A DNA stretch of 64,000 nucleotides from Trypanosoma brucei (GCA_000002445.1 CP000067.1:32001-96000), one strand, 5' to 3'. Counted from the first letter of the stretch, positions 2,907-59,000 are shown. The notes: generated by a model from the sequence alone, not told the origin. A program made the numbers and translations.

Positions 2907-4946
2907 CTATGCATTGTTACCACCTCTATTGTTAACTCCATTGTTATTGTTACCTCTTACTTGCAATTCAACGTATAGTGCAGTAATGTGGTTACTAAGA
3001 GAAACTGAGAATTGACGCACTTTCTCTCTCCAAAATCTTTCCTCAACCTTATTATTTTGTCCTTCACCTTCGATTGTCCCCTCACAACATTGTGGCTTCG
3101 TAATTTTTTCACTGTCAACCCTTTGGACATATATTATTTCCCATACCATATCATTGGAAAAATTGTCCCAATGTTTGAAGTAACTTCGCAAATACTTCTT
3201 CATCTTAAATAACCCACTGGTGCTGCAGTATTGTTTATCGGAAATTGTGAATTGTAGTCCCACAAAAGTCTTCTGGTTCTCAACAAAAAAAAACGCATCA
3301 ACAACTGGGAAATTTCCTGATTGCGGCTTGCACAAAATCATGTATTGAATTTCAGTTCCAGCTACAATTGGAACATCCTCAGGAACCACAATCGAAGGAC
3401 CAATGAGTCTTGGTTCTTGCAGCACCTGCAGCACACTTTGTGGAATTTGATCCTCAGAAAGTGAGAGGCCCCGTAACTCCTTTGCCAGCTCAATTAGTGC
3501 ATCCTCATGTGACAATACTTCAATGCCACTCTGCTTGAAACGATAAGCAGCAAGGGTACGGTTAGACAGCAGTTCAGATACTAAAGCAGACTTTTCCTGT
3601 ATAAAAGGTTTCAGTCGATCTGAAATAGCTTCCCCCGTGCAAGATGAAAGTGGCTTGCAGCGATACGTATCACACAGGAGAAAATCCTCTTCCTTCACTC
3701 GAACAACCATCACCAACTTGTGTGATGCTTCATGTGTTTCCCAAAAGGCTCGGTTTCGAATAACGGAACGAAAATACTCAGTATCTCCACGTTCAAGTTT
3801 CAAAATAGTATTTTGCATTGCTTGAGCACGCTTTTCGTACGAACGTAAATCAACAATGTGACAAAGCAGTGGACCAACGATACGAATGCGAGCTTGAATT
3901 TCTTGCCATTCTCTTTCAATTTTCTCTTTCGCATCTGAAGGACTCCACTTGTAAGCAGGAGCAATTTTCCCCCACCTCGATATGTGTATGGCTTCCAAAT
4001 CCTTCAATGTGTCACAGTTTATGTAAATATGTGTGGCGCCGTTTTGCTTGGACCATTCATGGAATTGTCTGGCGTCTGGAAAACTCAAAGCAATACCGGA
4101 AAAATCAACAGGTGGTTTCACTGGAGCATGATGGTCCTTGTCCACGACGAATATAAGGTATCCCTTGATATCCTCTGCGCCACATGAATCTCTGACTATA
4201 TGGTCAATATATGTTGAAGCTTGCTCATAATTACTGTAAAACGTAACATATCCTGCTCGACCGCCTTTGGGTTTATGAAACACATACGCCTTACCCCTCA
4301 CAACGTATATGATAATCTGAAGTTGACTCGATTCATAATGCAGTAGTTTGTATAACAGAAAGGGTGCTGTGGAAAACGATTTACCAATACCAGGTGTACC
4401 AATAAGAACATGAAACATCGGGTTGACAGTCACTTCACCCATAAGCCACTTGTTAAGCCGTTCCTCAACCTTATGCCACACCCTCAGTGTTTCCCTGCGG
4501 ATATAAACATCACTTTTAAAAACATACTCCACACCCTTCTTGTGATTGATATCATAATCTTTTTCTTGTGGTTGGAAAGACGTGTATGGCCAACCCACTT
4601 GAGATGTGAGCACAGCAATCTCCAAGTTACCGTGACGAGGAAGAGGTTCGTTCATAGTTTCCAGAGTGTGACTGACATCAACCTCCTCCTTCGTCCACAT
4701 GCGCGGTGGCCTTCCATCGAACACTTTCATTCCAAGTGGCTCTTCATTATAACCCGACATTACATAGCTCCACGTCGCATTATAAATGTAATCGTATAAT
4801 TTCTCTTCGAGAGACTTGCCCTTTCCGGTTTCTGATGGGTTCTCGTTTTCTCGGCTGGCTTGTCTCTTCATTGGGCGGTACGCACCATTCAACCATCCAT
4901 TTAAAATATTCCGAGTATCTCCTACACTACCGCCGTTCTGATTCAT
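2907..4946 (-). CDS. RHS: Retrotransposon hot spot (RHS) family protein, 679 aa. This form lacks the N-terminal RHS domain and has a P-loop NTPase motif.
   Basis: True ATG start at 4944-4946. Walker-A-like GTPGIGKSF. Strong similarity to the other RHS members in the window (SYVMSGY..EPLGMKVFDGRP..WPY..YIRRE..RVW, C-terminal GNFPVVDAFFFV..WE(I/M)IYxQ). The first ~50 codons are identical to gene 17436-19463. Confidence 0.85.
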   Translation of the reverse strand: MNQNGGSVGDTRNILNGWLNGAYRPMKRQASRENENPSETGKGKSLEEKLYDYIYNATWSYVMSGYNEEPLGMKVFDGRPPRMWTKEEVDVSHTLETMNEPLPRHGNLEIAVLTSQVGWPYTSFQPQEKDYDINHKKGVEYVFKSDVYIRRETLRVWHKVEERLNKWLMGEVTVNPMFHVLIGTPGIGKSFSTAPFLLYKLLHYESSQLQIIIYVVRGKAYVFHKPKGGRAGYVTFYSNYEQASTYIDHIVRDSCGAEDIKGYLIFVVDKDHHAPVKPPVDFSGIALSFPDARQFHEWSKQNGATHIYINCDTLKDLEAIHISRWGKIAPAYKWSPSDAKEKIEREWQEIQARIRIVGPLLCHIVDLRSYEKRAQAMQNTILKLERGDTEYFRSVIRNRAFWETHEASHKLVMVVRVKEEDFLLCDTYRCKPLSSCTGEAISDRLKPFIQEKSALVSELLSNRTLAAYRFKQSGIEVLSHEDALIELAKELRGLSLSEDQIPQSVLQVLQEPRLIGPSIVVPEDVPIVAGTEIQYMILCKPQSGNFPVVDAFFFVENQKTFVGLQFTISDKQYCSTSGLFKMKKYLRSYFKHWDNFSNDMVWEIIYVQRVDSEKITKPQCCEGTIEGEGQNNKVEERFWREKVRQFSVSLSNHITALYVELQVRGNNNNGVNNRGGNNA

Positions 4947-7135: not shown

Positions 7136-10102
7136 TCAGGCAGCGGGGCCACCAGCAATAGCGTTTGGTTCATCCTGGGTGATCTCCTTAACAATATCCT
7201 TTTCCATCTTCACTTGAAACTGGTTGATTCTATTCCACAACTCTGTAGTATAATCGCCTCTGCCCCCAACTGGTTCGCACTTCTGCCTCTCCTCGATTGG
7301 CTTGCTGTCACTGTACTGTATGTAAATCAGCTCCCATTTCAAGTTTATTGCGAGCTCATCCCATTCACCAAACAATTGTTTCATTGCCTTGATAAACTTA
7401 TCTACCTTCGTTCGTGTCGTGTGATGCGTTGGTGCCACTGTCGTCTGGAGCAGAACAATTGTTGTTGTAATGATCGCTCTTCCTTCTGTATCAACAGCTG
7501 GCTCAGTTACAAAGAAAAAGGCGTCCACAACGGGGAAATTTCCCTGTGCAGGTCGGTAGAAGCACCCGACCTCGATGTCTTGGCCTGTCGTTTCGGGGTA
7601 AATATGACGAAGTGAAGTTGGAACACGTCCCACGGCATTACCACTTGCCAGAACGGATACATTTGAATCCATTTCTTCTCCAACGCGAGGGAGATACCGC
7701 AGGTGCGTCACAATCGTCTGCACAACATTTCCCATCGTGAAGGCATATACGCCCACATTTTCAAATTCATCAGCGGCCTGCTCTTTTTTCCCACGAAAAC
7801 CCTTTCGAAGGTAATTGTCTCGCATACATGCTGTGTCCGCCCACACTCTCAATTTCTGCTCAATATCAATGGAAACAGCTCTGTTTCTGCATTCTTCTCC
7901 ATTCTCAGTTACAACCCGGACCAATTTAGCCAACCTGTATGTAGTCCCGTCCTCGCGCCATTCAACTTGACCATTCAGCACCTGCATATAGTAACCATCA
8001 TCGCCTCTACTGATTTCTGCCAGTGCCTCATTTATTTCTCTAACGCGGCCCTTGTAGCGTTCGTCACCTTCCAGTACGTGGCGGGCAGTGGGCCCACCTT
8101 CTTAATCCATCCTTATATTTTCTGCCATTCATTCTCAAGGTTTATGATGTGAGCTTCGGTGATTTTACTTTCCTCCAACTTCGACAGCCGCCTCCACGCA
8201 ACCGCAGCCTTCAGTTCCACCTCTTCATAGCAATTGATGCAAAGGAACTCGCAACCCCGTGGTTCCTTCCACTCTTTGTAGTTATTTGGATCTGGAGATG
8301 TCAACACAATTACGGGCCACGTTTCCGGCAAGTCTGCGGGTATGGGTTGGTGCCTGTCTTTCGAAAAGTCGTATATAATATAACCAAGAAGCCATTCGTC
8401 AGCCAAGGCATTGACAGCATCCACTCCATCATTTTCTTTTTCATAGAATACAACCCTTCCCGGATGATCGTTTGTCGCCATGAAGAAAATATATGCCCTA
8501 CCCTTCACAAAATAAGCGATAATCCGCAACAGCTCCGAATCGTAATGCAGCAACCCTTGGAGCAGGATTTTTTTTTAGAATTTTCTTCGTGCCTTCGTGA
8601 GAGTTTCCCCCCACTGGCGCGGCCATCAGCCATCACCGTAGAGCCCTGAGATGCTATCGGTCTGGCGACTGTGGCAGAGTCTCCCTTTTTTATTCATCCT
8701 AACACACCCTCTATAATTTTTGTTGTATTTCCGCATATGAACGGAATACAGCAGATGGGGCGAGAAGCCTCCCACCCTGGACTCTCCCAAAGATGCCAAT
8801 TGGCAATCCTTTTTTGGAGGTCCACATCACCGGACAGCAGCATCTTAGTGCGGATGATACTGCTGATGGCACGCTGGCACGTGCCCAGGGACCGACAAAT
8901 GAAAAACGGTGTCCCAGCAAGACGCTGCTGATCCCTGTGCTGTATGATGCCGTAGCCGGAGCACAGCAGTGTTCCCCATGAAAGGAACGCTGCTGGCTCT
9001 TGGCTTCCCCCGATGATACGGGGTACTGGACCCTGGCACCACGTTGAGGTGGCCGGCATCGCCAGGGTTGGAGCAGGAACGAGCCAACACCAACTGATTT
9101 CCCAATACCTGCAGTGCCGACGAGGACGCAAGGAATCTGTTTTTCGATCAGCCCTGACTCCAGCCACAAATCCAGCCTCTGCTTCACAAGATACCACACT
9201 CTCATTACCTCTCGACGAATGTACACATCCAGGTCAAACACGTAGTCTCCTGGTTTTTCCGCATCCTCTTGAATTACACTTCGCGGAATGCGGAAACGAT
9301 GATATGGCCAACCCTTCTGTGAGGTGAGCACAGCAATCTCTAAATTACCACGTCAAGGCAGTGGGTCGCACAAATCGTAAGGCGTTTTACTGACATTCAC
9401 CTCCTCTTCTGTCCACAGCTCAGGCTCGCCGTCACAATTACCCACCACCTTCAGGCCAAGAGGTAAATCATTGTGACCCGACTCCACATAACCCCACGTC
9501 GCGCTATAAATGGAGTCGTATACTCCTTTCAGTTCGGCACCACCAGCTGTTTGAGCAGCTCCTCCCAATGCTTCATCGAGTGCATTATTCAACATGTTAG
9601 TGACAATAATTCAAGTCTGCTCTCCATTTCTCAGTCCACGAATATTCACCTGTAACCTGGCCTTTACTTCCTCATTTGCTTGTTTCCAGCGCACGAGATT
9701 CAATATTCCCTCATTCTCATAAAAACCATAGACGCTGACAAAACGTTTGTACACTTGATACTCTGTTGTCGCGAATATTCGATTGAGCGCATTAACGTCA
9801 TTAATATACTCTTCACATCGTTGTACAAACACAGATATTGATACATTATTTTCTTCTTTCACATTGTATCTTGTGCCAAAATTACTTCTCAAAAAATCAT
9901 TCAACATCACATTTCCAGGATGTGGCAGACCATTCAGCAAAACTGCTTCAATGCAGCTGAAAAGTCTCCATTGTGGTTGGTTGTTATTCTCCACTCGTTG
10001 CTGCACTGCTGGAGGTTCCGCATCGTTACGCGCAGCCTCCTCACGCTCTCGTCTCCTTCCCTCAATGTCACCCCTTCCTTCAATAGGAACCTGTTGATTC
10101 AT
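7136..10102 (-). pseudogene. RHS: Degenerate RHS pseudogene. The N-terminal, P-loop, middle and C-terminal RHS regions are split across at least five reading-frame pieces, and it is interrupted by a RIME element.
   Basis: Track ORFs 9611-10102 (N-terminal domain, ATG start), 9353-9595, 8711-9331 (GTAGIGKS P-loop), 8113-8553 and 7136-7987 (C-terminal GNFPVVDAFFFV) are co-linear with intact RHS genes but lie in different frames. Confidence 0.8.
8565..9067 (-). mobile_element. RIME-type (ingi-derived) non-LTR retroposon, ~503 bp including poly(A), inserted in frame into the RHS pseudogene just downstream of the P-loop.
   Basis: Minus-strand 5' end reads CCCTGGCGATGCCGGCCACCTCAACGTGGTGCCAGGGTCCAGTACCCC, which matches the conserved trypanosomatid retroposon 5' signature as I recall it. 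The 3' end is an A9 tail (T9 at 8565-8573 on the plus strand). An 11 bp target-site duplication ttggagcagga lies at 8554-8564 and 9068-9078. The insert is a GC-rich ~500 bp block where intact RHS genes have only ~15 codons. Confidence 0.85.
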
Positions 10103-14047: not shown

Positions 14048-16410
14048 TCACCTTCGCTTTGCTTTCATCGCTCGCCTCCCCTGTGCCTTTTCTGCCTCCT
14101 GAAGATCTACCATCAGATGAGCATTCATTTCGTCCCCAAACGTTACTTGGAATTGTTCAATCATTTCCCAAAATGTTTGAAGTTGTTTCGCCTTCCTGGC
14201 AGGGATAACTTTGTCGTCGTTCGCCTCACATTTTTGCCAATTGGTAATCACACCGCCATTAACTCCATTCATGTATATCATCTCCCAAGCCATGTTACCC
14301 GAAAACGTGTTCCAGTCCGAAAAATATCCTTTAATTCTCTCCGTGAACGCATTCAACTTTGTCGCAGTGGTGGAGTGACAGTCCGACTTGGTCACGTGTA
14401 AAAGGACAAGTGTCTTTGGTTTTGGCGTTTTTTTCGCTTGCCTTCCAGGTGACATCGTGAAGCGCCCCTCAACGAAAAAAAAGCCATCCACCAAGGGTTC
14501 ATAGGCTGTGGCGGGAGTGTAGAGCACCATGTATTCGCAGCGTTCAATTGGGTTCTGCCTGGCTGCTGGTAAGACTTCCCATCCAGTGAGGCACAACTGC
14601 TGAGGAGTCATGCTACTCAGTATACTTTGTGTTCCCCTCAGCTTCTCAGGCGGATGGAGGTGTCTCAAGTTCTTTGCCATCATCTCGAGAACTCGAGGAT
14701 TGAGCACCGCAAACAACGCATGGCTTTCAAATGAAATGAAAGCGGCACTTCTGTTTCTCATCATGAGCTGGGACTCTGCTACTTTTCGCGCAGTAAAGCC
14801 AAGCACCGCCCAAAGTAGCAAGGTCCTTATGTGCCCGGAAAGCTCTTTGCTGCGATATGAATCTCCGGAAACTCCATTTCCACGCGAACGGACTATCTGT
14901 ACCATCTGGTACGACACCTTTTCAGTTTGCCAGTTCATTGATGACCTAAAAAGATCCTCGCAGCCATTTTTATCATTAGCATCGAGGCCTCTTATTTTTT
15001 TTGCCACCGCCTCCATTCGCCCTCCGTGCCCCACAGCGTCGTAAACGGCACGAGGCACCGGGCCGGCCACTGCAATACGCTGCTTTACAGTTTCCCATTC
15101 GTCCTCAAGATCTCCTTTTAACTTTTCTTTTGCTGTGTTGGATACCTTTTTACCTAATGCTACTGATAAATTCTTCCATGCCACAAATGCCTTCATGTCA
15201 CCCACATCATCGTAGTTTATAATAATATGGCGGCTTCCCATGTCCTTTTCCCACTCCTCATAATGTGCCGTATCCGGGGAAGTGAGGACAGTTATACCCC
15301 AACCCAAATGGCACAGCTCATCAGGCGGTATAAGTAGTTCGTTACCGATGTCGACAATGATGTGACCTCTTTTTTTTCTTATTGTTTTTATGAAGGTAAC
15401 GGCGGAATCGGTGCTTCTGTCTTCCTCAACCCTCCCCTCTTCTCCGGGTTTCTTGTTATGTATTAGGTAAGCGATTTTTCCCACGAAATATGCAACAACA
15501 TCAAGCATTCCTTCATTGAAGTGAAGCAGTGAATGAAGCAAAAATGATCCAAGGCCACATGTTTTACCAATACCAGGTGTACCAATAACAATATGTATCG
15601 GTGGTCTCTGTGCTTTTTCCACCCACCTTCCTTGCAGCCCTCGTTGAATTATATACCACACGCGCATAATTTCACGACGGATGTATACATGTTTAAGTTT
15701 TTCCCCGCACCTCTCAGTGTGGCCCAATGCAAACCTGTTGTATGGCCAACCTTTCTCCGAAGTGAGAACAAAAATCTCCAAACCATCAGGCCTCTCCTCA
15801 ATATCTGCATCGACATTCGTAGGATCAGGAGTTACATCCACCTCCTCCTTCGTCCACATGCGCGGTGGTCTTCCATCAAACACTTTCATTCCAAGTGGCT
15901 CCGCATCATAACCCGACATCACATAACTCCATTTTGCATTATAAATGGAATCGTATAATTTCTCTTTGAGAGACTTGCCCTCTCCGGTTTCTGATGGGTT
16001 CTCGTTTTTCCGCTCTCTTGGCGGCTATCACTGCAGCATCCAACATTCCCCTCGCCACGGGACCAACAAATTCCCTTATTTGCGCTGTTGCCCTCTCTTC
16101 CCATTGCTGTATGTCGCTAATCTCATTACGAGGCAGATAAATAACTGCCCTCAGTAATTGAAACTCCTCAAGCCGCTGTATTCTTCCTAGAATCCTGGCA
16201 TCTAAAATAAATCTTTTGTGATTCTTAACAAGCAAAAACATGGCTACATTCTGTGTGTCATACGTGTTTGAGAAGTATTGATCCAAAAAGTCATGCAGTT
16301 TTATTTCATCCAAACTCGCATAATCTTCCAGCAGCACATTCGCAATAGAGCTGTTAATTGACCAAGTTGACCCTTTTTCGCCTCCACGCAGTCAATTCAA
16401 AAAATATATT
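14048..16410 (-). pseudogene. RHS: Near full-length RHS pseudogene of the same subfamily as the tandem-array genes. It has N-terminal, P-loop and C-terminal domains, one frameshift, and no initiation codon.
   Basis: ORF 15939-16337 (N-terminal domain, GTG-'started' in the track) and ORF 14048-15922 (VIGTPGIGKTCG through the C-terminal FFFV..WEMIY) are separated by a single -1/+1 shift at the T5 run 16005-16009. The codon at the Met position is ATT (16356-16358), and there is a TGA just upstream. Confidence 0.8.
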
Positions 16411-17435: not shown

Positions 17436-19463
17436 TTACCTTCGGCCCGCAGCAGCCACCGCAAGCATTTTGATAACTATGTTATCCTCATACTGCACAT
17501 GGTACTGCTGCACATTGTTCTTCCAGAATCCCTTCACAAACTGGTGACTGCGGTGCTTTGCCTTACCCTGTGTAATTTCACACTTCTGCTCAGACCTCAT
17601 CGCTGTGGATTCGAAGTGCTGAACGTAAATGATTTCCCAGTGAAACATCTCAGTAATTTCCTCCAACTGCTCAACGGTAGCCTCATTCTGGTGACCCCCT
17701 CCCTCCGCACTTGGCAAGAGGGATTGTAACAAATGAATGAATTCGTCGGTTTTTGTGTCATGTCTGCTGGCAACAGTAAACTGCAACAACACAATAGTTT
17801 TCTTTCCTGTGGTTCCTGAAGCCTGTGCAGCCTCCTTGTCATCAACAATAAAGAATGCATCCGCTACGGGGTAGTTGGGAATGCACGGCACATATAATTC
17901 CACCGGAGCCCCCTCCGACTCAGCCCAGTTGATGTCACCTGGCACTGTGTTTGTTCGACCAACTTTGAGGAGGTCATCCCTTACGTGTTGCAAAATGCTT
18001 TTGCGTGTCCTCATGCGTCTGGCCCTTTCATTTGCTGGAAGTTTCGTTATTAAACTTACGAAGCAAGTTAACACTCTGGGGGAACACAAATATTTAATTG
18101 CATTCTCCTCAAAATAAAGCCCGATGGCAGATGCATTCCGCATCATACCAGTTGTCAGTGCCCACTCCTCAGCAATGCCGGAAAACACTACATTCAAAAT
18201 TCTTTTCTTTATAGATTCAGAATGCGCCACGCAGACATACGTGTCAAAGGAGTTTCCTTCTCGAGCTTTGATACGAACGATCTTCACGAGCTTATGTGAT
18301 GCATCATTGTCCCTCCATTCCCCACAGTTGTCCAGTACCTTAGTATATATTCCGTACTTGTTACCTGCTACGATACTCCCCAATTCCCCGTCCACTGCAG
18401 TAAGCTCCTGTCCATACATTACTTCGTCAAACACATAACGAAGTGAAGGTCCGACACGCTCCACACGGTTCTCATACATGTTCCACTTTTCCCTCAACTC
18501 AACATGCGTGGCTTGAGGAAACAGCTTGAGTCCCATACGTGAGAAGAAAGCCCGCATTTCACTCATTTCCCAGCAGTTAACAACAATAAAAGCGCCTTTA
18601 CGTTGCTTTTGCCAGCTGTCAAAATTTCTCAAATTGGGTGAACTGATCAAAATGCTTCCCCATTTTGGAGCCACATCTGCCGGTGGCTGCTCGCCTTTGT
18701 TGACGAAGTCATAAATAATATAACCACGTGTATTAGATGATATAACCTTCATAAACGTTATAGCCGCTTCTTTACTGTACTCCCTAACTCTGCCAACGCC
18801 ACCATTATCCGATTTTTCAAATATATATGCGGCTACACCACGGAAATACGCAACAACAGGCAACTCTTCCGCATCATAATGCAATAACTTGTAGAGGATA
18901 AAAGAACCCAAATTCTGAGATTTGCCAATCCCAGGATTACCAATGGCAACGTATGATCGTGGTAAATAAAGACATCCCGGTATAACACGCTGGGTACGCC
19001 ATAATTCAATTCCACTCCTTACAACATTCCATACGCGGAGCTCCTCTCTGCGAATGAATATGTCACTGTTACTTCCCCGGGCAAAGCCTGTATATGGCCA
19101 ACCCATTTCTGAGGTAAGAACCAACAGCTCAACTCCTTCCGTGCGTTCCGGCTTCTGTTCAAGAGTTTCCTCAATTTTGGGGACAACATTAAGTTCCTCA
19201 TCTTTCCACATCAAACCTTCATTGGGCATTCCATCAACCAACGTCATTCCCAATGGTTGAGTTCCATCGTCGATAATAATATAACTCCATTTCGCATTAT
19301 AGGTGGAATCGTATAATTTCTCTTCGAGAGACTTGCCCTCTCCGGTTTCTGATGGGTTCTCGTTTTCTCGGCTGGCTTGTCTCTTCATTGGGCGGTACGC
19401 ACCATTCAACCATCCATTTAAAACATTCCGAGTATCTCCCACACTACCGCCGTTCTGATTCAT
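17436..19463 (-). CDS. RHS: RHS family protein, 675 aa. N-terminal-domain-less form with P-loop NPGIGKS.
   Basis: ATG at 19461-19463. The first ~50 codons and the upstream 440 bp are identical to gene 2907-4946, while the body is diverged. The C-terminal motif PVADAFFIVD..WEIIYVQ is present. Confidence 0.85.
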   Translation of the reverse strand: MNQNGGSVGDTRNVLNGWLNGAYRPMKRQASRENENPSETGEGKSLEEKLYDSTYNAKWSYIIIDDGTQPLGMTLVDGMPNEGLMWKDEELNVVPKIEETLEQKPERTEGVELLVLTSEMGWPYTGFARGSNSDIFIRREELRVWNVVRSGIELWRTQRVIPGCLYLPRSYVAIGNPGIGKSQNLGSFILYKLLHYDAEELPVVAYFRGVAAYIFEKSDNGGVGRVREYSKEAAITFMKVISSNTRGYIIYDFVNKGEQPPADVAPKWGSILISSPNLRNFDSWQKQRKGAFIVVNCWEMSEMRAFFSRMGLKLFPQATHVELREKWNMYENRVERVGPSLRYVFDEVMYGQELTAVDGELGSIVAGNKYGIYTKVLDNCGEWRDNDASHKLVKIVRIKAREGNSFDTYVCVAHSESIKKRILNVVFSGIAEEWALTTGMMRNASAIGLYFEENAIKYLCSPRVLTCFVSLITKLPANERARRMRTRKSILQHVRDDLLKVGRTNTVPGDINWAESEGAPVELYVPCIPNYPVADAFFIVDDKEAAQASGTTGKKTIVLLQFTVASRHDTKTDEFIHLLQSLLPSAEGGGHQNEATVEQLEEITEMFHWEIIYVQHFESTAMRSEQKCEITQGKAKHRSHQFVKGFWKNNVQQYHVQYEDNIVIKMLAVAAAGRR

Positions 19464-48880: not shown

Positions 48881-50080
48881 TTAGGCGTCCAAAACAATGT
48901 GCTCTTGTGCTAGCCCGTCAGTATCGATGGCTTCACAGTGCCGGATGGCATACAAAATCCGGTCACGCATAACATCAATTGAACTGTAGGCGGGTATACG
49001 GAGTGTAAAGAAACAAGTATTACTGGTTGGAAGGGAGTCACGGGTCCCTCCCCTTTTAACTTTGATGTTTTCCTTGAGCGGCAGCCTTGTTTGTCCCGTT
49101 GTAAAGCGGAGAAGCAGCATCCGGTCTTTATCACACATAGTTTCAATAACTTCGTCAAACATTTGTGAATCGTTTGAGGGGAGAGAGACCTCACAAACGT
49201 CACGCAGTGCTTGACAAGATAACTTAGGCGTCCCACAAATGATCAACTCCACTTGCTGCCAGCGGAAGGCATTGAGTGTGTACAAGGGGATTACTTGACC
49301 GAACCCATGCCGAATATGGCTGATCACCACATCATACTTGTGAACTTCGATGGAGGCAATATGTTCTGCGAGTATTCCCGCAGTACGAAGATCCACAGGC
49401 GGCAATTCCTCCCGCATTCTAAGGTGAGAATTTTCACTACAGAATCTCAACCAACTCTCCTGTAGGCCTGGAAATCTCTCCTCCAGCTCCTCAGCCGTCC
49501 GCTCTGCTAACGCCTCCGGTGTTAATTGCCTCATTATGTCACGATCCATGGCCCTCAGGTCACGCAGTGATGTTTCCTCGCTAAGTAAGAGTTTCCAAAA
49601 CAGTGGTGGAAACTCCACGGCGAGGAGATCTTTGGTAATAAAACACGCTGCGAGAAACTTCCCGAAAAACTCGAACATGGGAAACAGCTGAAATTCAAGA
49701 GCCATTGTTGCATTTGGCATCACGGCCAACTGCCCATCACAACCGCAGTCCTTAAAGAGGGGATTCTGTTGGAATTTCCCGCTTGGGTGTGTTGACATAA
49801 TCTCTGTCGCAAGCTGTGATAGAATATCGCGGTAAGGTCCCCCCACGTCCGTAGATCCAAAACCGGCAAGCTTTACGGTGAACATGGGCGAGACATAGAA
49901 GATAGAAATCGGACTTCGCTGAAGCTGCGCGAACAACTGTCCGAACACGGAACGCATTAGCGTTGGGTAAAAACCGTAGCGCACAGAGGCCCGGGCGTGC
50001 ATTGTATGAATGGTAACTTTCCCTTTGTGCCCCGTGCGATTTCTGAAAGGCCGCATTGTCTCATTTTGGATTTTTTTTGA
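48881..50080 (-). other. HECT catalytic domain (N- and C-lobes) of the giant ligase.
   Basis: Motifs as listed for the parent gene. Confidence 0.8.
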
Positions 50081-53000
50081 AGACTCTGCAGAGCAAAGGC
50101 TCTTAAGCTTCTTCCACATTTCAAAAAGTTCTGTGCTGCGCCGAATGTCAACTACCACAGAAAAAACAGCCGTCAGTGTATCAAATATTTGTAGACGCTT
50201 AACATATGGTACGAGCCGCTCAATCGGAACATCGTTCCCCAGGACGTCAGCACCAAGGAAGGACAACAAGTGAGTATATTCCACTAAATCATGGGAAGGA
50301 ACAGTCAACGACGCATCACCGTTAGGGGAAACAAGCAACTTCTCTGATATCGAAAAGGTTTGACAAAACAGGGACAATTCAGCATAAAATTCGAACGATT
50401 GCGCGACAACCTCCGTGTCGAGGCGATGGGGATGTTCCTGGAACCTGCTGTAGAGTTGGGACACGTCCATACCAGTAGATGCTTCAGTGAGAAGTTGCTC
50501 ACCATGAAACGTTGCGTCTTCCCTTCTTTCCGCGAAGAACACCGGAAGTGCCAACATTTCGTTAGGAAATGTCTCAAATCGAGTAGTTGTTTCATTTTTC
50601 GACTCCCTCTGGAGATTAAATATAACGGCTTGCTCATGATATAAACACGTTACCAGAACAATGTCGCCACCTTTTGCTCTCACTTGCAATGGCTGCGATT
50701 CTTTTTTACGGCTTAGACAAAGATGTATCTTTCCATTTGGCTTTATGAGGTAACCACATGACGGTAACAAAGTGCTGGCCGACGACTGATCCTTATCTGA
50801 CGTACCTGCTGCTAGGGAACCCGGTAGTGAAGCATCCATGTTCCATCCAACGACAACATTTCCACATCGTGCAGAGTTCAAAACTACTTCGAATTTTTTC
50901 GAACCGAATGTACATCGAAACGTTTGGGAGAAGACACCGTAACAGCTACAGTACCCCTCGGGTGATGTTGGGCCGGTCAGTAGCTCAAAGCTGATACGGT
51001 GTGACTCCTGTTGCCCTCGCGTGAAAGCCTCGGGTAAAGGCCGTGGTGGTTTGGATGTAACCGCTTCGATGGCCAACTTCGTGCAAATGACAATGGCATA
51101 CGGTACACAACTCTGCCTCCCAGGAGCTGGTAAACTGGGTCGCTCCAGTTGATAACGCTGCAGAAGCTCACTCACCAGCAATATACCCAACTGTACAAAC
51201 GTACAGGACATCTTCCCCCTCTGACACATGCTACTTATCACAGCTAGAAGTGGAGCAAGTGATGCGCAAAGGGCTTCATGTGATGGCAGCGGGCAATTGC
51301 TCATTTTAAGCAACTGAAGCACGCATCGCAGAGCAACATTTCTTACCGCACGTACATGTGCCGTTGCGGTGCGAAGCAATAAAAGCATCAATGTTGATCC
51401 GAATGATGTCGACAGAAGATGGATGACGCCATCAAGGCTGAGCGACACATAAATGAGGTTGACGCTAACTTCCACGTTTTCTGCACTTTGCGCAGCGAAT
51501 GGCGCCGCAAGGCATGCGTAAGCGGCCGCAAGCAGAAAAAATGAGGATCTGCGGACCTCCGCCCGAACCAAAGCAGTGAGGGAGGACAAATCATTCCGCA
51601 GTGTAGTGTACGGAAGCAGATGTTGTAGTGTCTTGAGTGTATCCGATGAATTGCAACTCATGATGACGGTACCAATCAGTTTCTTCGCATACGACACCAT
51701 GGCCTCTTCAACTTGTGGTATAAGACTCGACTCACCACCACTTTGAATTCCTATAGCTGGTGTATTCCATGAGTGCTGACCGAGAGACCCCATCCCCTGC
51801 GAAACATTGGGTGAGATGCGGTCAATCATCAGTTGGGTCCATATTGTATCCATTGCACTGCGTTGAACGGGTGAATCTTCCTTGTGCAACACACGCCAAT
51901 GCACGACTTTGACGGAAGTACCGGGAGCAGAGAGCGTAAATGAAAGCTGCATATCTGCCGGGCAGTCCCTCCCTTGTAACACTTCGTATACCGTCTCCCC
52001 GTTCACCACCACAAGAGCGCGTTTCGCCCAGGGTATAACGCGAATGTAAAGTCGAACACATTTGACGGAAGATGTCGGCAATATGAGCGATTCACCATGA
52101 ACAGGAATTATCGGGATGGGTACGTCCACAAACCAAGCTGTTGGGGGATGTTGAAAAGTAACCCGCGCGGGAAACTGCACGGAGGTACACACCAGGAGCT
52201 CTATCTCATGTAACTTGAGTCCCTCGATCACTGGTTTTGTCACGGTGCACGATTGTGGGCCAATACTTGAGACGTGTTGAACACAACCGTTTGAAATCGT
52301 GACGTGTTGTGGAGAAGCTGAGAATGTCACCTCTTCCTCTACCCACGGTTGTTGTCGCTGAAACTTCAGCAGCAAACGGCGTCGGTGGTTTTGCCTTTCC
52401 AAGATTGGTGACAAGTCACGTTCGGCATCCTCCTTTGTCTGGGGTACATCACAAAAAGGTAAAGATACTGCGGAGACATCGCTACGGTAAGTGACGCAAG
52501 AAGCAACTGAAAACTTTGGTGTTTCATGGGGTACCGCGCAGCACTTGAGAGCGAATCCGTTAAAGAGAAGGTTGTGCTCAAGCGGCACACTTGTATCATA
52601 GGAGAAAACGGCAGTGTCATCCTCAAACTGAGTAAAATCGCAGTTGTAGCTCCTCGCGTTTACGAAGACACTAAGGGGGAAAATATCTTCGCAAGTTGGA
52701 ACAGGGCCGTAAACCAAAAATAGCGCCGCCTGCGAGAGATCGTCCTGTAATTTTTTAACTATCCGGTATCCACCGTCCTCTAATGAAGTTACACAACGTC
52801 CCAACTCATCCACATAAATAAAGATGTGCTTCTTTCCGTCTAATGACTCGACCTTAGAAAGGTCCTCTCCGTCAGTGCCCTCCGACGAACTCACAAAAAG
52901 CGAGGAGCCCTGTACACTGCTTATCTCCTTTACGGAAACTATGCATGACGTCCGAATCGGATCTGACACCCACCAAAAAAAATCACCTTCAGTGGTGAGA

Positions 53001-56000
53001 CGATCCGTGACTGCACACTGGTTACAGATCCGTCTGTTGAACTGAAGTTTGCTGCTTTGCATGTGCGGGGGGTTTAAGCTTCCTAAAGACAGGTAACGGC
53101 CGCAGATAACTCCGCGGAGATCATCCTCCAGTTGCCTCCAGGCAGGCGAGTCATCGAATGATACTCTAGAAACAGTCTCCCACTGCACCCATTCCATTCT
53201 GGTTCCTCCGAGAAAAATAAGCCGTTGTTCGCCGCTTTCACAAAGGATTAAACCACGCCCTAACGATTCGACCGTTACGGGCCCTCCGACAGGTCGATTA
53301 AATTGGAGATCTCTCGCGTTTACGCGTTGGCATAGGTAACTCCGATAACCGCATGACTGCGATGGAATCGTGTACGTAATTCCTCCATGAAGAAGCTGCT
53401 TCTCCTTCTGAATGCTTGAAAATGGTAGCGTACATGTAGTTACCCTCCCCGCCGTAATTCCAATATATTTATCCTCCAAAGCAACATTTGACAACCCTGG
53501 TCTTCCGTCCTCCGACACTGTGTAGAACATGATACTACTGTGGTTTGTGGTATGAAGAAAGAAAGCCACATGCTCCCCTGGAGAGATGGTTATAGACTCA
53601 AACCCCTCTACTTTCGCTTCAACGCCTCGTGCAAGCTCCATATCCCTTCGCATGACAACTTGCCACTCACCGCCTTGCTCTTCAACTCCTCTGAAAGTCC
53701 CATTACGCATAAAGAGAGTTACGGTCGCGGTAGATGTTGTGTCAGAGACAAAATACACCTTTACAATGTTCACCTTATTTCGTTTCGCAATAACATCAAA
53801 CATAATCCCGCTGCACGAGTTACCAGGAATGCACGCTTGGCGGCCCGTTTGAAGAAATATTGTCTCCTCTCCGGCACTCTTTTTGGCATCGTCTGCAAAC
53901 TCCCTTAGTTGATCAAGAATGTATGAAATTGTCATATTACCCTTTTCCAGCATGCCTGCAGCGGACCGGAAACCTTCCTCACATATTAGAAAGGTGCTGA
54001 ACATACGAAGGAGTTGGGCACAGCTCCACAAATCACCCTTCATATCACGTGTTCCTTGTCGCTGAAGCTGTGGGGAGGCGAAATGATCGTATCGACGTAA
54101 GGTATAAACATTCCAAACTGCGCATGTGACCGTGGCTCCTCGGCCAGTTTTCACATACACATTTTTCGGGTGGATGTTGCCGTGGATTAGAGAATGCAGG
54201 TGCCAGTGCTCCAACGCGGCAAGGAGGGACATAACAATGGATTTCTGTTGTTGTTTGGAGAATCTTTCCATGTCTAAGGAGTTAAGAGTGCCGTCAAACC
54301 AGCCATGCGTAATAACACCAAAACTTTTTGAGGAGTCCAATGACTGCATTATGTCCTCTTGGTACATTACACACGGATGCTTTGTTACTACGTTAAAGGA
54401 CGTAACAGTTATTTCGGGGTCATCATGGCTAAATATGTGCAGTGTTCGCTTGCTTGTTGTGTTGTCGTCAAAATATAGTAAACGAACCATAGAGCTTCCA
54501 CCGACCCTACCAATAACCTCGTATGCGCTAGGCAACCGTATAAAAGTGTCCCCTTCATCTGCGGTTCCAGGAATGAAAACGTGCGGTTTATCCAGCGGTG
54601 ACGACAAAGCATCCACTACCCTCCGAACCGCAGTTTGACCGCAAAATTCCTCAAGCTTTTTGTCCTCAACTCGAATCATCTCACGCGAAAAAGCACCCAC
54701 CTCCGCGAGTTGCTTAAGAGCATTTGACAATCTGTAAGCAAGTTTCGAGTTCCCGCAATGGTCACACCAAATGAGTTCAATGGCAGTCACACGATCTGAA
54801 GGTAGACTGTAGAGTACATGTCGAAGTACGGTGTACGTTGAAACCACTACGCGGAACGGTATTCGGCGAAGAATAGTCGGTGTTATTGGGTGTGATGCCA
54901 GCACCACGGAAGGTGGTGCTCTAAACTTTCCGGCTCCCAATGCACCACCGTAAAAGGTAGCAAGCGTGGCGGACGCATTAGCATGGTCCAAACGAACAAA
55001 GGGAGACACGCTCAGATTGGAAGGTATATTGTGAAAGACAACCCTTGGGGACTCATTGTTACGTGCTAAAGAAAGGGTTCCATTGTCACGATCAAGAAGA
55101 AAATGCAACTTTGTTCCCGCAAGAAACATCGTGTTGCCTGACGAGTCAATAGGGGGAATTCGTTCCTGTGTGGGTAAAGAGTCGCCGTCGAGAACATCTT
55201 GCACTATCCAAACCTGGTCAACTTGCTCACGAAGTTTCACGAAGTGCGGCTCCAGCTGGTCGAAGGTCGATACCACAATTCCAGCAAAGTGCCCAGAACC
55301 AAGTGAATCACCTCCGGCACGGTCACTGCGGGTTATTTGCACAACAAATCCCGACAAACCAACTGTTGGAAGTGGGGACCCAATCACTGCTTGCCCGGAT
55401 GCATCATTACAGCTTGCCGTGCGACCTTTGTTCGAAATGACTACTTTGGACGGATTACACAAAGTCCACACGGGGGTGTATTCCACAACACCCTCAGACC
55501 AGCTCCTTGATCTTGTGGATATGCCTCTGTCGATCACCTCTCGTGGTGAATGGAGGTAGAGGCTAGTAGGATGAGGCCCTACGTTCATAACTGCTATCTT
55601 CGGTGAAATCCCCTTCAACGACGAGCCAACGTGCTCCCTGTATGAGACATGGCAGCGAACGTTGTCATCCTCATCGTACACGACAAAATCGTTATCAGCT
55701 GTGAATGCGAGAGTAAGTTCTTCGTCACGTGCGAGGCTGAAGCTGCGGTGAATCACACTGTTTCGACTCCCTTCCCAGTTTATCTTAAAAATAGGTCTAA
55801 ACAGTTGGACGAGCACTTCCAAAAAGAAAACATTGGCACTTGTCGCAGACACTGCCCCCAGCTTCCAGAAGCGTGGCTTATTCACTGGCCAGGCACCTGT
55901 GCTGAACACTCCCTCAAGCTCGCATGCTTCGCTTGGTTTCAATTCTACTGTGTCATACCCCCCTGCCCAGCGCCACGGATGTGACACCGAACTCATGAAA

Positions 56001-59000
56001 GGCGTAGGTGGTGGGAACGTCATCTCACAAATTGAGAGACGCAAACAGTCACAACCCCTTCTCTTAACGAAGAAGCAATACTGCGAGGGAGCAAACACTC
56101 CTAACTGCTCGTGAAGCGGTCCTCCGTGAGCTGCGTAATATGTTGCAGGTTCGTAGAGGATATCCTGCTCGATATCATCACCAAAAACAATGTGCAAAGA
56201 GACTTGCAACAGTTTGGGGCGTGATTTGCTGCTTAAACGTAGTGGAAGATCGGTGACGAACGCAACTCCCCAGGAGTCCCCGAGGGGAGTAAACAAAAGG
56301 GAGACAAACGCAGCCAGATTTTCATTATATACAAAGGGACAGGCAAAGCTGCAGCACTTTTCGTTCCATCCGTCTTCGTGAAGAAGCTCCGGTGATAACA
56401 TGTATTCTACGCTACCTGAATCCAGCGCTCTACCCGAAATCGAGTCGTGCCTCCTTGCTTTGATAATTCTATCAGCGGCAAAATTTGTCGACCTTGTGTG
56501 GCGCACCAAAGACGATGCACACGCGCTGCCAGCATCAAAGGACAAGTTCCACCGTTGAGCAATGTACCGTGCTAATATGCTAATCAGATGTTCTTCCTCC
56601 CTTAAAGCAGGAAAATGGACAGTTCCTGTCGCCTGGCATACGCTTTCGACAGCAAAGGGTTGGTGGCACCAGCCACACTCAATAACAGGAACTAAACAAT
56701 CTACTGGTACCGTGACACAGACGGGAGTACCACCCCTACCAACCTCTACCGCGACTTGGGATTTAATATCGGGATCACTGACTAGACGCACCAGCTCCCC
56801 GGCGGAAAACTCCCCTGACCCCAGTGCGATGACAGCAAGATCTCCCTTGCACAGCGAATTGAAGTATGCCACACCATTCACACCAAACGGTAGTGTCACA
56901 ACACCATCACCCAAGGCGTCTGTAAGATTCCCGTTTACCACACCACTCAACAGATCTTCAGATATTTCTTGCCTACCAACGTTTCCCGGTCGCGCCTTCA
57001 CAAGCTTTCCAAGGGATTCAATCACACCAGTATCTTCAAAGGGTTGCGTAACCGAAAACGGCCCGCTGGCAAAAGCCACTAGCGCTGTCAGAAGGCGCGT
57101 AATGACAAACCCCTGTACTGCGGGGAAAACAGCCATGTTACGTCCCAGTAAGCGCCGTTGAACAATAAGACGGTAGGTGACACGCCCACGAAAGGCACGA
57201 GGTTCTGATGGTATCTCCAAGAAAGGTACAATCCCCTCGCTTTTCTTTCCAACATAAATTGTCAAAACCCCGTCGCTCTCGAATTCGTCGCCCACATCGC
57301 CAACGTGCCCATCGCTGCTGTTATAAAACCGGACTCCACAGCTGGATGTTGTGTTGACATACAAAGCGTACATCTGATTCGCCCGCAGTTGAAGATTGAG
57401 TGGACCCGGAGAAAAGGTCTGCTTATCTGCCAGGTAAAGGTACCGAGTTGCGACCTCTTTCCATTTTGAAGGGACCTTTTCAGCGCCCTTCATACTTCCC
57501 TCCTTCCAGAAAACTCTGACATTTATGTTATCCGCTGTTGTTTGAGAAATGCAGAATATTTCTTCCAACAACACATCCTGCTTGCTGCGGATGTCGAACA
57601 TGATGCCGTTGTATGATGCTGAATTGTTTTGGCTGAGATGCCCACCCGTCGATATAGCGGAAAGAACCTCTGACACGCTCATGGGGTTTGCAGGTACGGC
57701 AAGAATATTACCCACAAGTCCTCGGACAGAGAAAAAGGTATTGCTTACACAGTGACCCTGCTCGCTGCAGGTAAAAAAACATCGTATCCGCTCCCTTCCT
57801 CTTTCCCTTACCATGCCCATAGTTCGTTCACAGACAGCACTGAAGACATAAGTCCCCCTTTTCATTTTAAGTTGGAGTTTATTCATTACGATTCTGTGTG
57901 AGCACTCTTTCGGGAGCAATACCTCATGATGTACCCAGACCCAATTCCTCTCTCTCGATGTCACACCCTCGGTAGAGTCGTTCACGTCAGCGCAATACAG
58001 AGAAACATGAAAGCTCATCGGACCTATAGTGTGCCCCACGTAGGGTTGAACAAAAACGGGTAGTAGAAGCTCTCGCAGCACAACCGGACCATCAAAAACA
58101 GTAACAACAAATTCAGCTCTTTCCGAAAGAGTAGACATTTGGGGGCGACTGACCAGTGGCAGATGATCGCTGCACCCATCATTATTCCTTTCATCCCACT
58201 CTCGCCACACAACAGAATCAGTTTCCTCCACTGCGAGAGCCTGTGCCTCTTCACTACGCACGTACACTATGGAACCGCAAAACCCGCAAGAGTTGGAACT
58301 AACATCAGTAAAGGGGGTGCTACTCTCGCTGGTGCGCCCCATCAAAACTGTGAGGGTACCGTCGGAGTCCATTTCCGATGAAACGGCCCCCGAGCAACCT
58401 CCCTCCTTCGCGTAATGGCCGACTCCAAAGTTGTGCGTAGCGTTGATGTATAAAGCGAAAGTTGAGCCGCCTTCAATACGGATTCCGTGAAACGTAACGG
58501 AGAACTGACGACCCGCGCGCATCTTAACAAAGTTAGAGAATATCTTCGTCCACGAGCCGCTAGTCCGTTCATGCATCTGGTGAGAACCCTTCTTGAAAAA
58601 TACTTCCACCCGATGGCGTCCCGAAGCGTGGGTGAGAACGGTCAAACCGGTCAGCACAACCGAATCCTCAGCTCGAACATCAAACATAATACCATTGTAG
58701 GACTCGTTGCGTAAAAGCCTGAATTTTGTGCTCCCCACAACAAACACACGCGTGACGCTGCCATCGGGGGCTTTCAGAGCGGGATATGGGGGTTGTAAAA
58801 CTTTGTGTGGTCCCTCGTTGTCCAGCACATAGATGCTGTTTTTATCCAGGGAGAAGCAGACACGCTTATCCGTTTCGTCGCATACGTTGACTGTATTGCC
58901 CCCTATTGACGTGACAAGCCCACGTTTGGGCTGAACGAGGCTTCCGGCTTTGAAGGCCACCTTAGCACCCACTACAATAGCGGCCGCATCAGCGGAAAGC

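What the first reader, a model, noticed from the sequence alone, without database searches (positions are those of the whole stretch)
8554..9078. RIME-type retroposon caught in frame inside an RHS pseudogene at the P-loop region, with intact target-site duplication and poly(A)
A ~503 bp element sits between the GIGKS P-loop and the following LLHY motif of the degenerate RHS pseudogene. Its 5' end, CCCTGGCGATGCCGGCCACCTCAACGTGGTGCCAGGGTCCAGTACCCC, resembles the conserved 5' signature of trypanosomatid ingi/L1Tc-type retroposons. It ends in A9 and is flanked by the 11 bp duplication ttggagcagga. The insertion preserves the RHS reading frame and creates the chimeric track ORF 8711-9331. This is the textbook behaviour that gives the RHS family its name, which makes the organism and element assignment very solid. 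The preserved TSD and poly(A) suggest a relatively recent insertion, even though the host pseudogene is old.
Basis: partly seen in the sequence, partly recalled or inferred. Interest (0 to 1): 0.55.

Follow-up and report, generated by a model that had tools for sequence, protein, structure and literature searches.

The report
RIME retroposon in RHS pseudogene
A 500-bp RIME retroposon of the Trypanosoma brucei group sits at the known retroelement hot spot just after the P-loop of a decayed RHS gene, which is the textbook situation that gave the RHS family its name, so the finding is correct but ordinary.

Summary
A 500-bp element lies on the minus strand at 8568-9067. It starts CCCTGGCGATGCC..., ends in A9, and is flanked by the exact 11-bp repeat TTGGAGCAGGA (8557-8567 and 9068-9078).

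The element aligns end to end (94-97 %) with two RIME copies from T. b. gambiense. Its nt 1-247 match the 5' end, and nt 255-500 the 3' end, of 5.25-kb ingi elements from T. b. equiperdum (93-98 %). It shares the RIME-specific internal junction.

The host is an RHS gene by Pfam (RHS_N, RHSP, DUF7578). Removing the element and one repeat copy restores ...GIGKSVGVGSFLLQGLLHY.... Eight other RHS genes in the window are uninterrupted at this site. One ingi and one RIME from T. b. equiperdum, each with a 12-bp duplication, sit at the homologous position.

- The element is 500 bp, not 503.
- The duplication is 11 bp, not the usual 12. The RHS frame therefore enters RIME one base off the ingi/RIME coding frame.
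- The 511-bp insertion shifts the downstream RHS frame, so the frame is not preserved.
- "Recent" is only weakly supported.
- The proposed refutation test is inverted.

The phenomenon is already known and interest is low.

The parts
8568..9067 (-). RIME, a non-autonomous ingi-derived retroposon, 500 bp, complete
   Evidence: Aligns over nt 1-500 to RIME copies in T. b. gambiense (L004 96.6 %, L003 94.4 %). It is the only ingi-clade sequence in the window.
8989..9067 (-). Element nt 1-79: the 79-bp signature / Pr77 hallmark of trypanosomatid retroposons. CGTG lies at element nt 25-28 (window 9040-9043). The ingi-ORF ATG lies at nt 9-11 (window 9057-9059).
   Evidence: These 79 nt are identical to those of the L004 RIME, and differ at 3 positions from the L001 ingi and at 3 from the L002 ingi. 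The 79-bp signature and the Pr77 downstream promoter element are described in PMC2323293 and PMC4748587.
8821..9067 (-). RIME 5' half, equal to the 5' end of ingi
   Evidence: 98.0 % identical to L001 4815-5061 and 98.3 % to L002 4778-5019, which are the starts of 5.25-kb ingi elements. The first 78 residues of the ingi ORF match at 94.9 %.
8814..8820 (-). RIME-specific internal junction (element nt 248-254, CCTCCAA), where the 4.7-kb ingi core is missing
   Evidence: The junction is shared with the two T. b. gambiense RIMEs. At this point both ingi 5' and 3' sequences diverge.
8568..8813 (-). RIME 3' half, equal to the 3' end of ingi, ending in A9 (8568-8576)
   Evidence: 96.3 % identical to L001 9822-10066 and 92.7 % to L002 9785-10031, which are ingi 3' ends. 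It is 99.2 % identical to the L005 RIME.
9068..9078 (-). Target-site duplication, upstream copy (TCCTGCTCCAA on the minus strand; encodes part of FLLQ)
   Evidence: Exact 11-bp repeat, found only twice in the window.
8557..8567 (-). Target-site duplication, downstream copy
   Evidence: Removing 8568-9078 restores an uninterrupted ...GSFLLQGLLHY....
9079..10102 (-). RHS pseudogene, 5' part (DUF7578, RHS_N, P-loop GTAGIGKS), with in-frame stops at 9611-9613 and 9353-9355
   Evidence: Pfam DUF7578 6e-21 and RHS_N 4e-29. Frame map.
7136..8556 (-). RHS pseudogene, 3' part (rest of the RHSP P-loop domain and the C-terminal region), with a stop at 8113-8115 and a frameshift near 8080
   Evidence: Pfam RHSP 8e-73 and 5e-34. 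Frame map.
8711..9331 (-). Chimeric open frame: 88 RHS codons run into 118 RIME codons (PWRCRPPQ...), ending at a TAG inside RIME. It is a by-product of the insertion, not a gene.
   Evidence: No Pfam family matches the RIME-encoded part.

Best explanation
This is a complete 500-bp RIME, the short non-autonomous partner of the T. brucei LINE ingi. It was inserted by target-primed reverse transcription into the retroelement hot spot of an RHS (retrotransposon hot spot) gene, and that gene is now a multiply disabled pseudogene.

Shown here:
- The element is a canonical RIME: ingi 5' end plus ingi 3' end, the family-specific junction, the 79-bp signature, and an A tail.
- It is flanked by an 11-bp duplication of RHS coding sequence.
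- Excising it restores the RHS sequence.
- The duplication begins five codons after the last P-loop residue, and the element sits ten codons after that residue. Other RIME and ingi copies occupy the homologous position in other RHS pseudogenes.

Inferred from the anatomy and from the established model for ingi/L1Tc elements:
- The ingi-encoded endonuclease nicked the window + strand at TTGGAGCAGGA^ACGAGCC.
- The freed 3'-OH primed reverse transcription of a RIME RNA from its A tail.
- A second nick 11 nt away on the other strand (CAA^GGG) produced the duplication.
- RIME encodes none of this machinery and was mobilised in trans by ingi.

Consequence: the RHS frame runs into RIME, stops after 118 codons, and the downstream half is shifted by +1.
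For: Element identity:
- End-to-end alignment to two RIMEs at non-RHS loci of T. b. gambiense DAL972 (94.4 % and 96.6 %), each with a 12-bp duplication.
- The two halves match the two ends of 5.25-kb ingi elements that carry endonuclease, reverse transcriptase and RNase H domains.
- The CCTCCAA junction is shared with other RIMEs and absent from ingi.
- 54 % G+C, against a published 53.8 % for RIMEs (PMC2323293).

Host identity:
- Pfam RHS_N, RHSP and DUF7578.

Insertion:
- Exact 11-bp flanking repeat.
- Excision restores GIGKSVGVGSFLLQGLLHY.
- Eight RHS paralogues in the window, and homologues from T. theileri and T. cruzi, have the motif once and uninterrupted.

Hot spot:
- The L002 ingi has the duplication tcctgctccaaa. 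The L005 RIME has ttttgcttcatt, in a different RHS subfamily. Both duplications start at the same codon position as here.
- The literature places the ingi/RIME hot spot five codons from the P-loop motif (PMC7563717).
- The literature gives 12 bp as the usual duplication length (PMC2323293).
Against: Nothing contradicts the identification. Several minor points do not fit the textbook picture.
- The duplication is 11 bp rather than 12. As a result the RHS frame is not fused to the ingi/RIME coding frame, unlike L002 and L005.
- No curated RIME or ingi consensus was available. The comparison rests on five copies that I fetched myself.
- Rfam has no family for the 5' hallmark, so the ribozyme/promoter element could not be scored.
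- The nick positions and the trans-mobilisation by ingi are inferred, not observed.
Confidence: 0.95

Rival explanations
1. The identity is the same (RIME in an RHS pseudogene), but the insertion is not recent or local. It happened in an ancestral pseudogene, and the occupied copy was later spread by segmental duplication within RHS clusters.
For: - Every protein-level relative of this RHS lineage found is a fragment that begins right after an ingi/RIME 3' end (P0001, P0002, P0012).
- The closest flank (L005, 95.4 % over 1.56 kb) also has a retroelement abutting the same ...CTGCTCCAAGGG site.
- The host carries three stops and a frameshift besides the insertion.
- An intact 11-bp duplication is expected by chance in about a third of cases even at 5 % divergence (0.95^22, arithmetic).
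Against: - Those relatives carry ingi, not RIME.
- The window copy has only 2 private differences in 500 nt, the fewest of the five copies compared.
- Against L002 the element ends are 93-98 % identical while the RHS flanks are only 81-85 %.
- The L005 RIME is an independent hit at the same position, with a different duplication sequence. This shows the site is reused.
Confidence: 0.3
2. A resident full-length ingi at this site was converted to a RIME in place. This could have happened by internal deletion, or by gene conversion or ectopic recombination with a RIME elsewhere.
For: - Paralogous pseudogenes carry ingi at the same site.
- Recombinant junctions without a duplication exist in L001 and L005. 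This shows that recombination between elements occurs in these clusters.
Against: - A fresh internal deletion would not reproduce the family-specific junction CCTCCAA that the T. b. gambiense RIMEs at unrelated loci share.
- Gene conversion cannot be excluded. It needs an extra event and leaves no trace here.
Confidence: 0.07
3. The resemblance is a chance or low-complexity artefact, and the flanking 11-mers are an internal repeat of the RHS gene.
For: None found.
Against: - 500/500 nt align to RIMEs from other genomes at 94-97 %.
- The 11-mer occurs only at these two places.
- Intact paralogues have the motif once.
Confidence: 0.01

Closest known systems
RIME (ribosomal mobile element) of Trypanosoma brucei, the non-autonomous partner of ingi
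   Same: 500 bp long. The 5' half equals the ingi 5' end, with the 79-bp signature. The 3' half equals the ingi 3' end. Same internal junction, same A9 tail, 54 % G+C, no endonuclease or reverse transcriptase coding capacity. 94-99 % identical to RIMEs of T. b. gambiense and T. b. equiperdum.
   Different: Nothing of substance. The duplication is 11 bp instead of the usual 12.
RHS pseudogenes carrying RIME/ingi at the hot spot (Bringaud et al. 2002, as summarised in PMC7563717)
   Same: The host has RHS_N and RHSP domains. The duplication begins five codons after the P-loop motif and the element sits ten codons after it. The gene is split into two halves around the element. It lies in an RHS cluster.
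   Different: The 5' duplication copy is one base shorter than in the other two cases examined. The RHS frame is therefore not fused to the ingi/RIME ORF frame, whereas it is fused in L002 and L005. I could not read the 2002 paper, so I cannot say how often this occurs among the pseudogenes described there.
ingi (5.25-kb LINE of T. brucei) in RHS pseudogenes, e.g. L002 of T. b. equiperdum
   Same: Same insertion site, same duplicated sequence (tcctgctccaa[a]), same element termini.
   Different: ingi carries the 4.7-kb core that encodes endonuclease, reverse transcriptase and RNase H. The window element lacks it.
NARTc/L1Tc of T. cruzi
   Same: The same kind of pairing, a truncated non-autonomous element with its LINE. 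They share the Pr77/79-bp hallmark; the L1Tc 5' primer CCCTGGCTCAGCCGG compares with CCCTGGCGATGCCGG here.
   Different: A different species and family. NARTc is a 3'-deleted 0.25-kb element, not a fusion of 5' and 3' ends (PMC2323293).

Membership tests
RIME | Length about 0.5 kb | tested here: met
   500 bp between the flanking repeats. The definition is in PMC2323293.
RIME | 5' half equals the 5' end of ingi and 3' half equals the 3' end of ingi, with the central 4.7 kb absent | tested here: met
   Element nt 1-247 and 255-500 match the two ends of 5.25-kb ingi elements in L001 and L002 at 93-98 %.
RIME | Same internal deletion junction as other family members, i.e. descent from the RIME lineage rather than a private deletion | tested here: met
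   The CCTCCAA junction is shared with the L003 and L004 RIMEs, and the alignment is colinear end to end.
RIME | 79-bp signature / Pr77 hallmark at the 5' end | tested here: met
   The first 79 nt are identical to those of the L004 RIME and differ at 3 positions from each of the L001 and L002 ingi copies. CGTG lies at nt 25-28, where PMC4748587 places the downstream promoter element. Promoter or ribozyme activity was not tested.
RIME | A-rich 3' end and a target-site duplication of about 12 bp | tested here: met
   A9 tail and an exact 11-bp duplication. The other copies have 12 bp.
RIME | Non-autonomous: no endonuclease or reverse transcriptase | tested here: met
   No Pfam family matches the element's open frame. 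Only the first 78 residues of the ingi ORF are present.
RIME | Mobilised in trans by ingi protein | not testable with these tools
   This rests on the established model (PMC2323293). No ingi lies in the window.
RHS (retrotransposon hot spot) gene family | RHS_N and RHSP P-loop domains | tested here: met
   PF20445 4e-29, PF07999 8e-73 and 5e-34, PF24466 6e-21.
RHS (retrotransposon hot spot) gene family | Retroelement at the conserved hot spot just downstream of the ATP/GTP-binding motif | tested here: met
   GIGKS-VGVGS-[FLLQ duplication]-element. The position is homologous in L002 and L005. PMC7563717 describes the hot spot.
RHS (retrotransposon hot spot) gene family | Pseudogene status beyond the insertion | tested here: met
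   Three in-frame stops (9611-9613, 9353-9355, 8113-8115) and one frameshift near 8080.

The most novel reading that the evidence does not exclude
The RHS lineage that hosts this element (...GSFLLQ[G/R]LLHYDSELL...) may survive only as retroelement-occupied pseudogenes that are hit repeatedly. Here it carries a RIME; in T. b. equiperdum paralogues it carries ingi. On this reading it acts as a dedicated landing pad, or as a source of small RNAs, rather than as a decaying gene. In addition, the 11-bp duplication variant puts the RHS frame into a second 118-codon open frame of RIME. T. b. gambiense annotation lists that frame as a 'T. brucei spp.-specific protein'. Nothing here shows that either point has functional meaning.
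Probability: 0.07. Interest if true: 0.35.

Novelty: already known. Interest (0 to 1): 0.08.

Why it matters
It matters little beyond annotation. It confirms that the window comes from a T. brucei-group genome and that this part of it is an RHS cluster. It gives one cleanly bounded example of hot-spot insertion, with the nick positions inferable to the base. Comparison with two other insertions suggests that the first nick is fixed and the second varies by one base. This decides whether the RHS frame is fused to the element's coding frame. Retroelement insertion at this site is the founding observation of the RHS family, so a specialist would not be surprised.

Tried and rejected
- Rfam scans of the element (E-value mode) and of the whole window (gathering mode) gave only chance-level hits. 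No HDV-like ribozyme or other family matched.
- I looked for other RIME, ingi or degenerate copies in the window by BLASTN, short-word BLASTN and TBLASTN with ingi proteins. None were found.
- I tried to identify the source record by exact-protein look-up of three window ORFs. None is on record.
- I tried to read Bringaud et al. 2002 by DOI and by two PMC ids. It is not held. Statements about that paper are taken second-hand from PMC7563717.
- Protein searches for an intact member of the host RHS lineage returned only post-insertion fragments. The word-index search clearly misses relatives: it did not return the 33-37 % identical RHS paralogues that TBLASTN finds in the window. Absence of an intact member is therefore not established.
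- In-situ deletion of a resident ingi was considered and rejected because the junction is shared with other RIMEs.

Full report
**1. Observation**

The sequence is as described, with small corrections to the coordinates.
- TTGGAGCAGGA occurs exactly twice in the window, at 8557-8567 and 9068-9078. The match extends no further on either side.
- Exactly 500 bp lie between the two copies (8568-9067).
- On the minus strand these 500 bp start CCCTGGCGATGCCGGCCACCTCAACGTGG... and end ...GAAGAAAATTCTAAAAAAAAA.
- The element is 54 % G+C, in a neighbourhood of about 38-40 %.
- An exact 11-mer at one fixed pair of positions has a chance expectation of about 2e-7. Among all exact 11-mer pairs at spacings of 300-799 nt in the window, only this one has spacing 511.
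- The pair abuts element ends that are defined independently by alignment to copies from other genomes.

**2. The host gene**

Pfam scans of the minus-strand open frames give:
- DUF7578 (6e-21) in 9611-10102.
- RHS_N (4e-29) in 9079-9331.
- RHSP (8e-73) in 8113-8556.
- RHSP (5e-34) in 7136-7987.

Deleting 8568-9078, which is the element plus one repeat copy, gives one continuous sequence...VLVGTAGIGKSVGVGSFLLQGLLHYDSELLRIIAYF.... The 11-mer encodes part of FLLQ.

Eight further RHS ORFs lie on the same strand of the window. All have the homologous motif once and uninterrupted, for example GIGKTCGLGSFLFYSLLHF and GIGKSFSTAPFLLYKLLHY. RHS proteins of T. theileri and T. cruzi do too.

Apart from the insertion, the host has in-frame stops at 9611-9613, 9353-9355 and 8113-8115, and a frameshift near 8080.

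**3. The element**

No reference library of eukaryotic repeats was available, so I fetched related loci through proteins.

*Full-length ingi copies.* Two T. b. equiperdum protein fragments (P0001, P0002) begin with a translated RIME/ingi 3' end followed by ...LQRLLHYDSELL. Their loci (L001, L002) carry 5.25-kb elements encoding endonuclease, reverse transcriptase and RNase H domains. These are full-length ingi, and they lie directly upstream of the RHS 3' half.
- Window element nt 1-247 match the ingi 5' ends at 98 %.
- Window element nt 255-500 match the ingi 3' ends, 4.76 kb further on, at 93-96 %.
- This is the published definition of RIME: ingi with the central 4.7 kb deleted (PMC2323293; PMC3447711).

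*Independent RIME copies.* Two short ORFs annotated in T. b. gambiense DAL972 (P0009, P0010) led to RIME copies at non-RHS loci, next to a protein kinase gene and an adenylate kinase gene.
- They align to the window element over all 500 nt at 94.4 % and 96.6 %.
- Each is flanked by a 12-bp duplication.

*Junction.* The three RIMEs share the junction ...GATGTGGA(C/G)CTCCAAAAAAGGATTGC.... The ingi 5' and 3' sequences diverge from it at exactly that point. The window element therefore belongs to the RIME lineage and is not a private deletion of a resident ingi.

*Other checks.*
- CGTG lies at element nt 25-28, where the Pr77 downstream promoter element is placed (PMC4748587).
- Rfam has no matching family.
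- The element is the only ingi-clade sequence in the window.

**4. The hot spot**

Three insertions with intact duplications can be compared:

| Insertion | Duplication | Length |
|---|---|---|
| Window RIME | tcctgctccaa | 11 bp |
| L002 ingi, same RHS lineage | tcctgctccaaa | 12 bp |
| L005 RIME, another RHS subfamily (GIGKSYGVGSFLLH\|...) | ttttgcttcatt | 12 bp |

- All three duplications begin at the second base of the Phe codon of SFLL. The downstream boundary differs by one base.
- The L005 duplication has a different sequence, so at least that event is independent. The site is genuinely reused.
- PMC7563717, citing Bringaud et al. 2002, describes the hot spot as lying five codons from the ATP/GTP-binding motif. 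Here five codons (VGVGS) separate GKS from the start of the duplication.
- L001 and the L005 ingi have the RHS 3' half but an unrelated 5' flank and no duplication. They look like products of recombination between elements.

**5. Mechanism**

The anatomy is shown; the steps below are inferred from the established model for ingi/L1Tc elements (PMC2323293).
- The window + strand reads ...CCCTTGGAGCAGGA|TTTTTTTTT.... The first nick was therefore at TTGGAGCAGGA^ACGAGCC on that strand.
- The 3'-OH primed reverse transcription from the A tail of a RIME RNA.
- The second nick, on the other strand at CAA^GGG, was 11 nt away.
- RIME has no enzymatic coding capacity, so it must have used ingi protein in trans.
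- The element has the same orientation as the RHS genes, so it lies inside the same transcription unit.

**6. The "in frame" claim**

- The RHS frame does run into the element for 118 codons (PWRCRPPQRGARVQY...) to a TAG at 8711-8713. This gives the listed ORF 8711-9331.
- The insertion adds 511 nt (3n+1), so the downstream RHS half is shifted. The start coordinates 9331 and 8553 differ by 778, which is 1 mod 3.
- In L002 and L005, which have 12-bp duplications, the RHS frame is fused to the ingi/RIME coding frame (...LAMPATSTWCQGPVPR..., ATG at element nt 9). In the window, with one base fewer, the RHS frame enters at element nt 1 and reads a different frame.
- The window copy is thus an off-by-one variant of the canonical in-frame fusion.
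- Both frames happen to be open in RIME, for 123 and 118 codons.

**7. Age**

- The A9 tail is uninformative. Four of the five other copies examined have the same A9; the fifth, the L005 RIME, ends in A6.
- An intact 2 x 11-nt duplication is only weak evidence of youth.
- Better evidence: in five-way alignments of each half, the window copy has 0 + 2 private differences, against 8-13 for the others. It is 98-99 % identical to the L005 RIME.
- Against L002, the element ends are 93-98 % identical but the RHS flanks only 81-85 %.
- Against the closest flank (L005, 95.4 %), the abutting ingi ends are only 91-93 % identical to the RIME halves.
- Together these favour an insertion younger than the divergence of the host paralogues.
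- With five copies and no orthologous empty site, I cannot exclude an older insertion carried along by segmental duplication, or gene conversion. I put these at about 0.3 and 0.07.

**8. Comparison with what is known, and verdict**

Every defining feature of RIME and of an RHS hot-spot pseudogene that could be tested was met (see the membership table). Only trans-mobilisation and Pr77 activity were untestable.

The phenomenon is the founding observation of the RHS family and is long established. RIME and ingi are annotated genome-wide in T. brucei (PMC2323293). The novelty rating is "already known" and interest is low.

The only small addition is this: across three insertions the first nick position is constant and the second varies by one base. 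That one base decides whether the RHS frame is fused to the element's coding frame.

Noticed in passing
window 20598-46343: A head-to-tail array of about 4.7 copies of a 5.43-kb unit, 97-98 % identical to each other. Each unit carries a 565-572-codon RHS ORF (DUF7578 + RHS_N + RHSP) on the minus strand, uninterrupted at the hot spot.
   Followed up: partly
window 48881-63979 (minus strand): A single 5032-codon open frame that reaches to within 21 nt of the window end. It has a HECT ubiquitin-ligase domain at the C-terminus and a SPRY domain further up. G+C rises from about 0.35 to about 0.48 at roughly 48 kb, which marks the edge of the RHS cluster.
   Followed up: partly
window 8694-9067 (minus strand): RIME has two overlapping long open frames on its sense strand. 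One is the ingi-ORF frame from the ATG at element nt 9 (123 codons). The other starts at nt 1 (118 codons), and T. b. gambiense annotation lists it as 'T. brucei spp.-specific protein' / 'hypothetical protein, unlikely' (P0009, P0010).
   Followed up: partly
window 7136-10102; P0001, P0002, P0012: For this RHS lineage the protein searches returned only fragments that begin just after an ingi/RIME 3' end, and no intact member. The word-index search is not exhaustive, so absence is not established.
   Followed up: partly
L001 4815-10066; L005 4167-9420: These ingi elements abut an RHS 3' half at the hot spot but have unrelated 5' flanks and no target-site duplication. In L005 the ingi A tail is also missing at the junction (...GAAGAAAATT|TCTGCTCCAAGGG). 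They look like recombinant or deleted junctions.
   Followed up: no
L005 14021-14519: A RIME 98-99 % identical to the window copy, inserted at the homologous codon position of a different RHS subfamily. It has the 12-bp duplication ttttgcttcatt and a shorter A6 tail.
   Followed up: yes
window 2907-4946, 14048-15922, 17436-19463 (minus strand): Three further long RHS ORFs of other subfamilies, 33-37 % identical to the host over the P-loop region. They lie on either side of the pseudogene. All nine RHS copies in the window are on the same strand.
   Followed up: no
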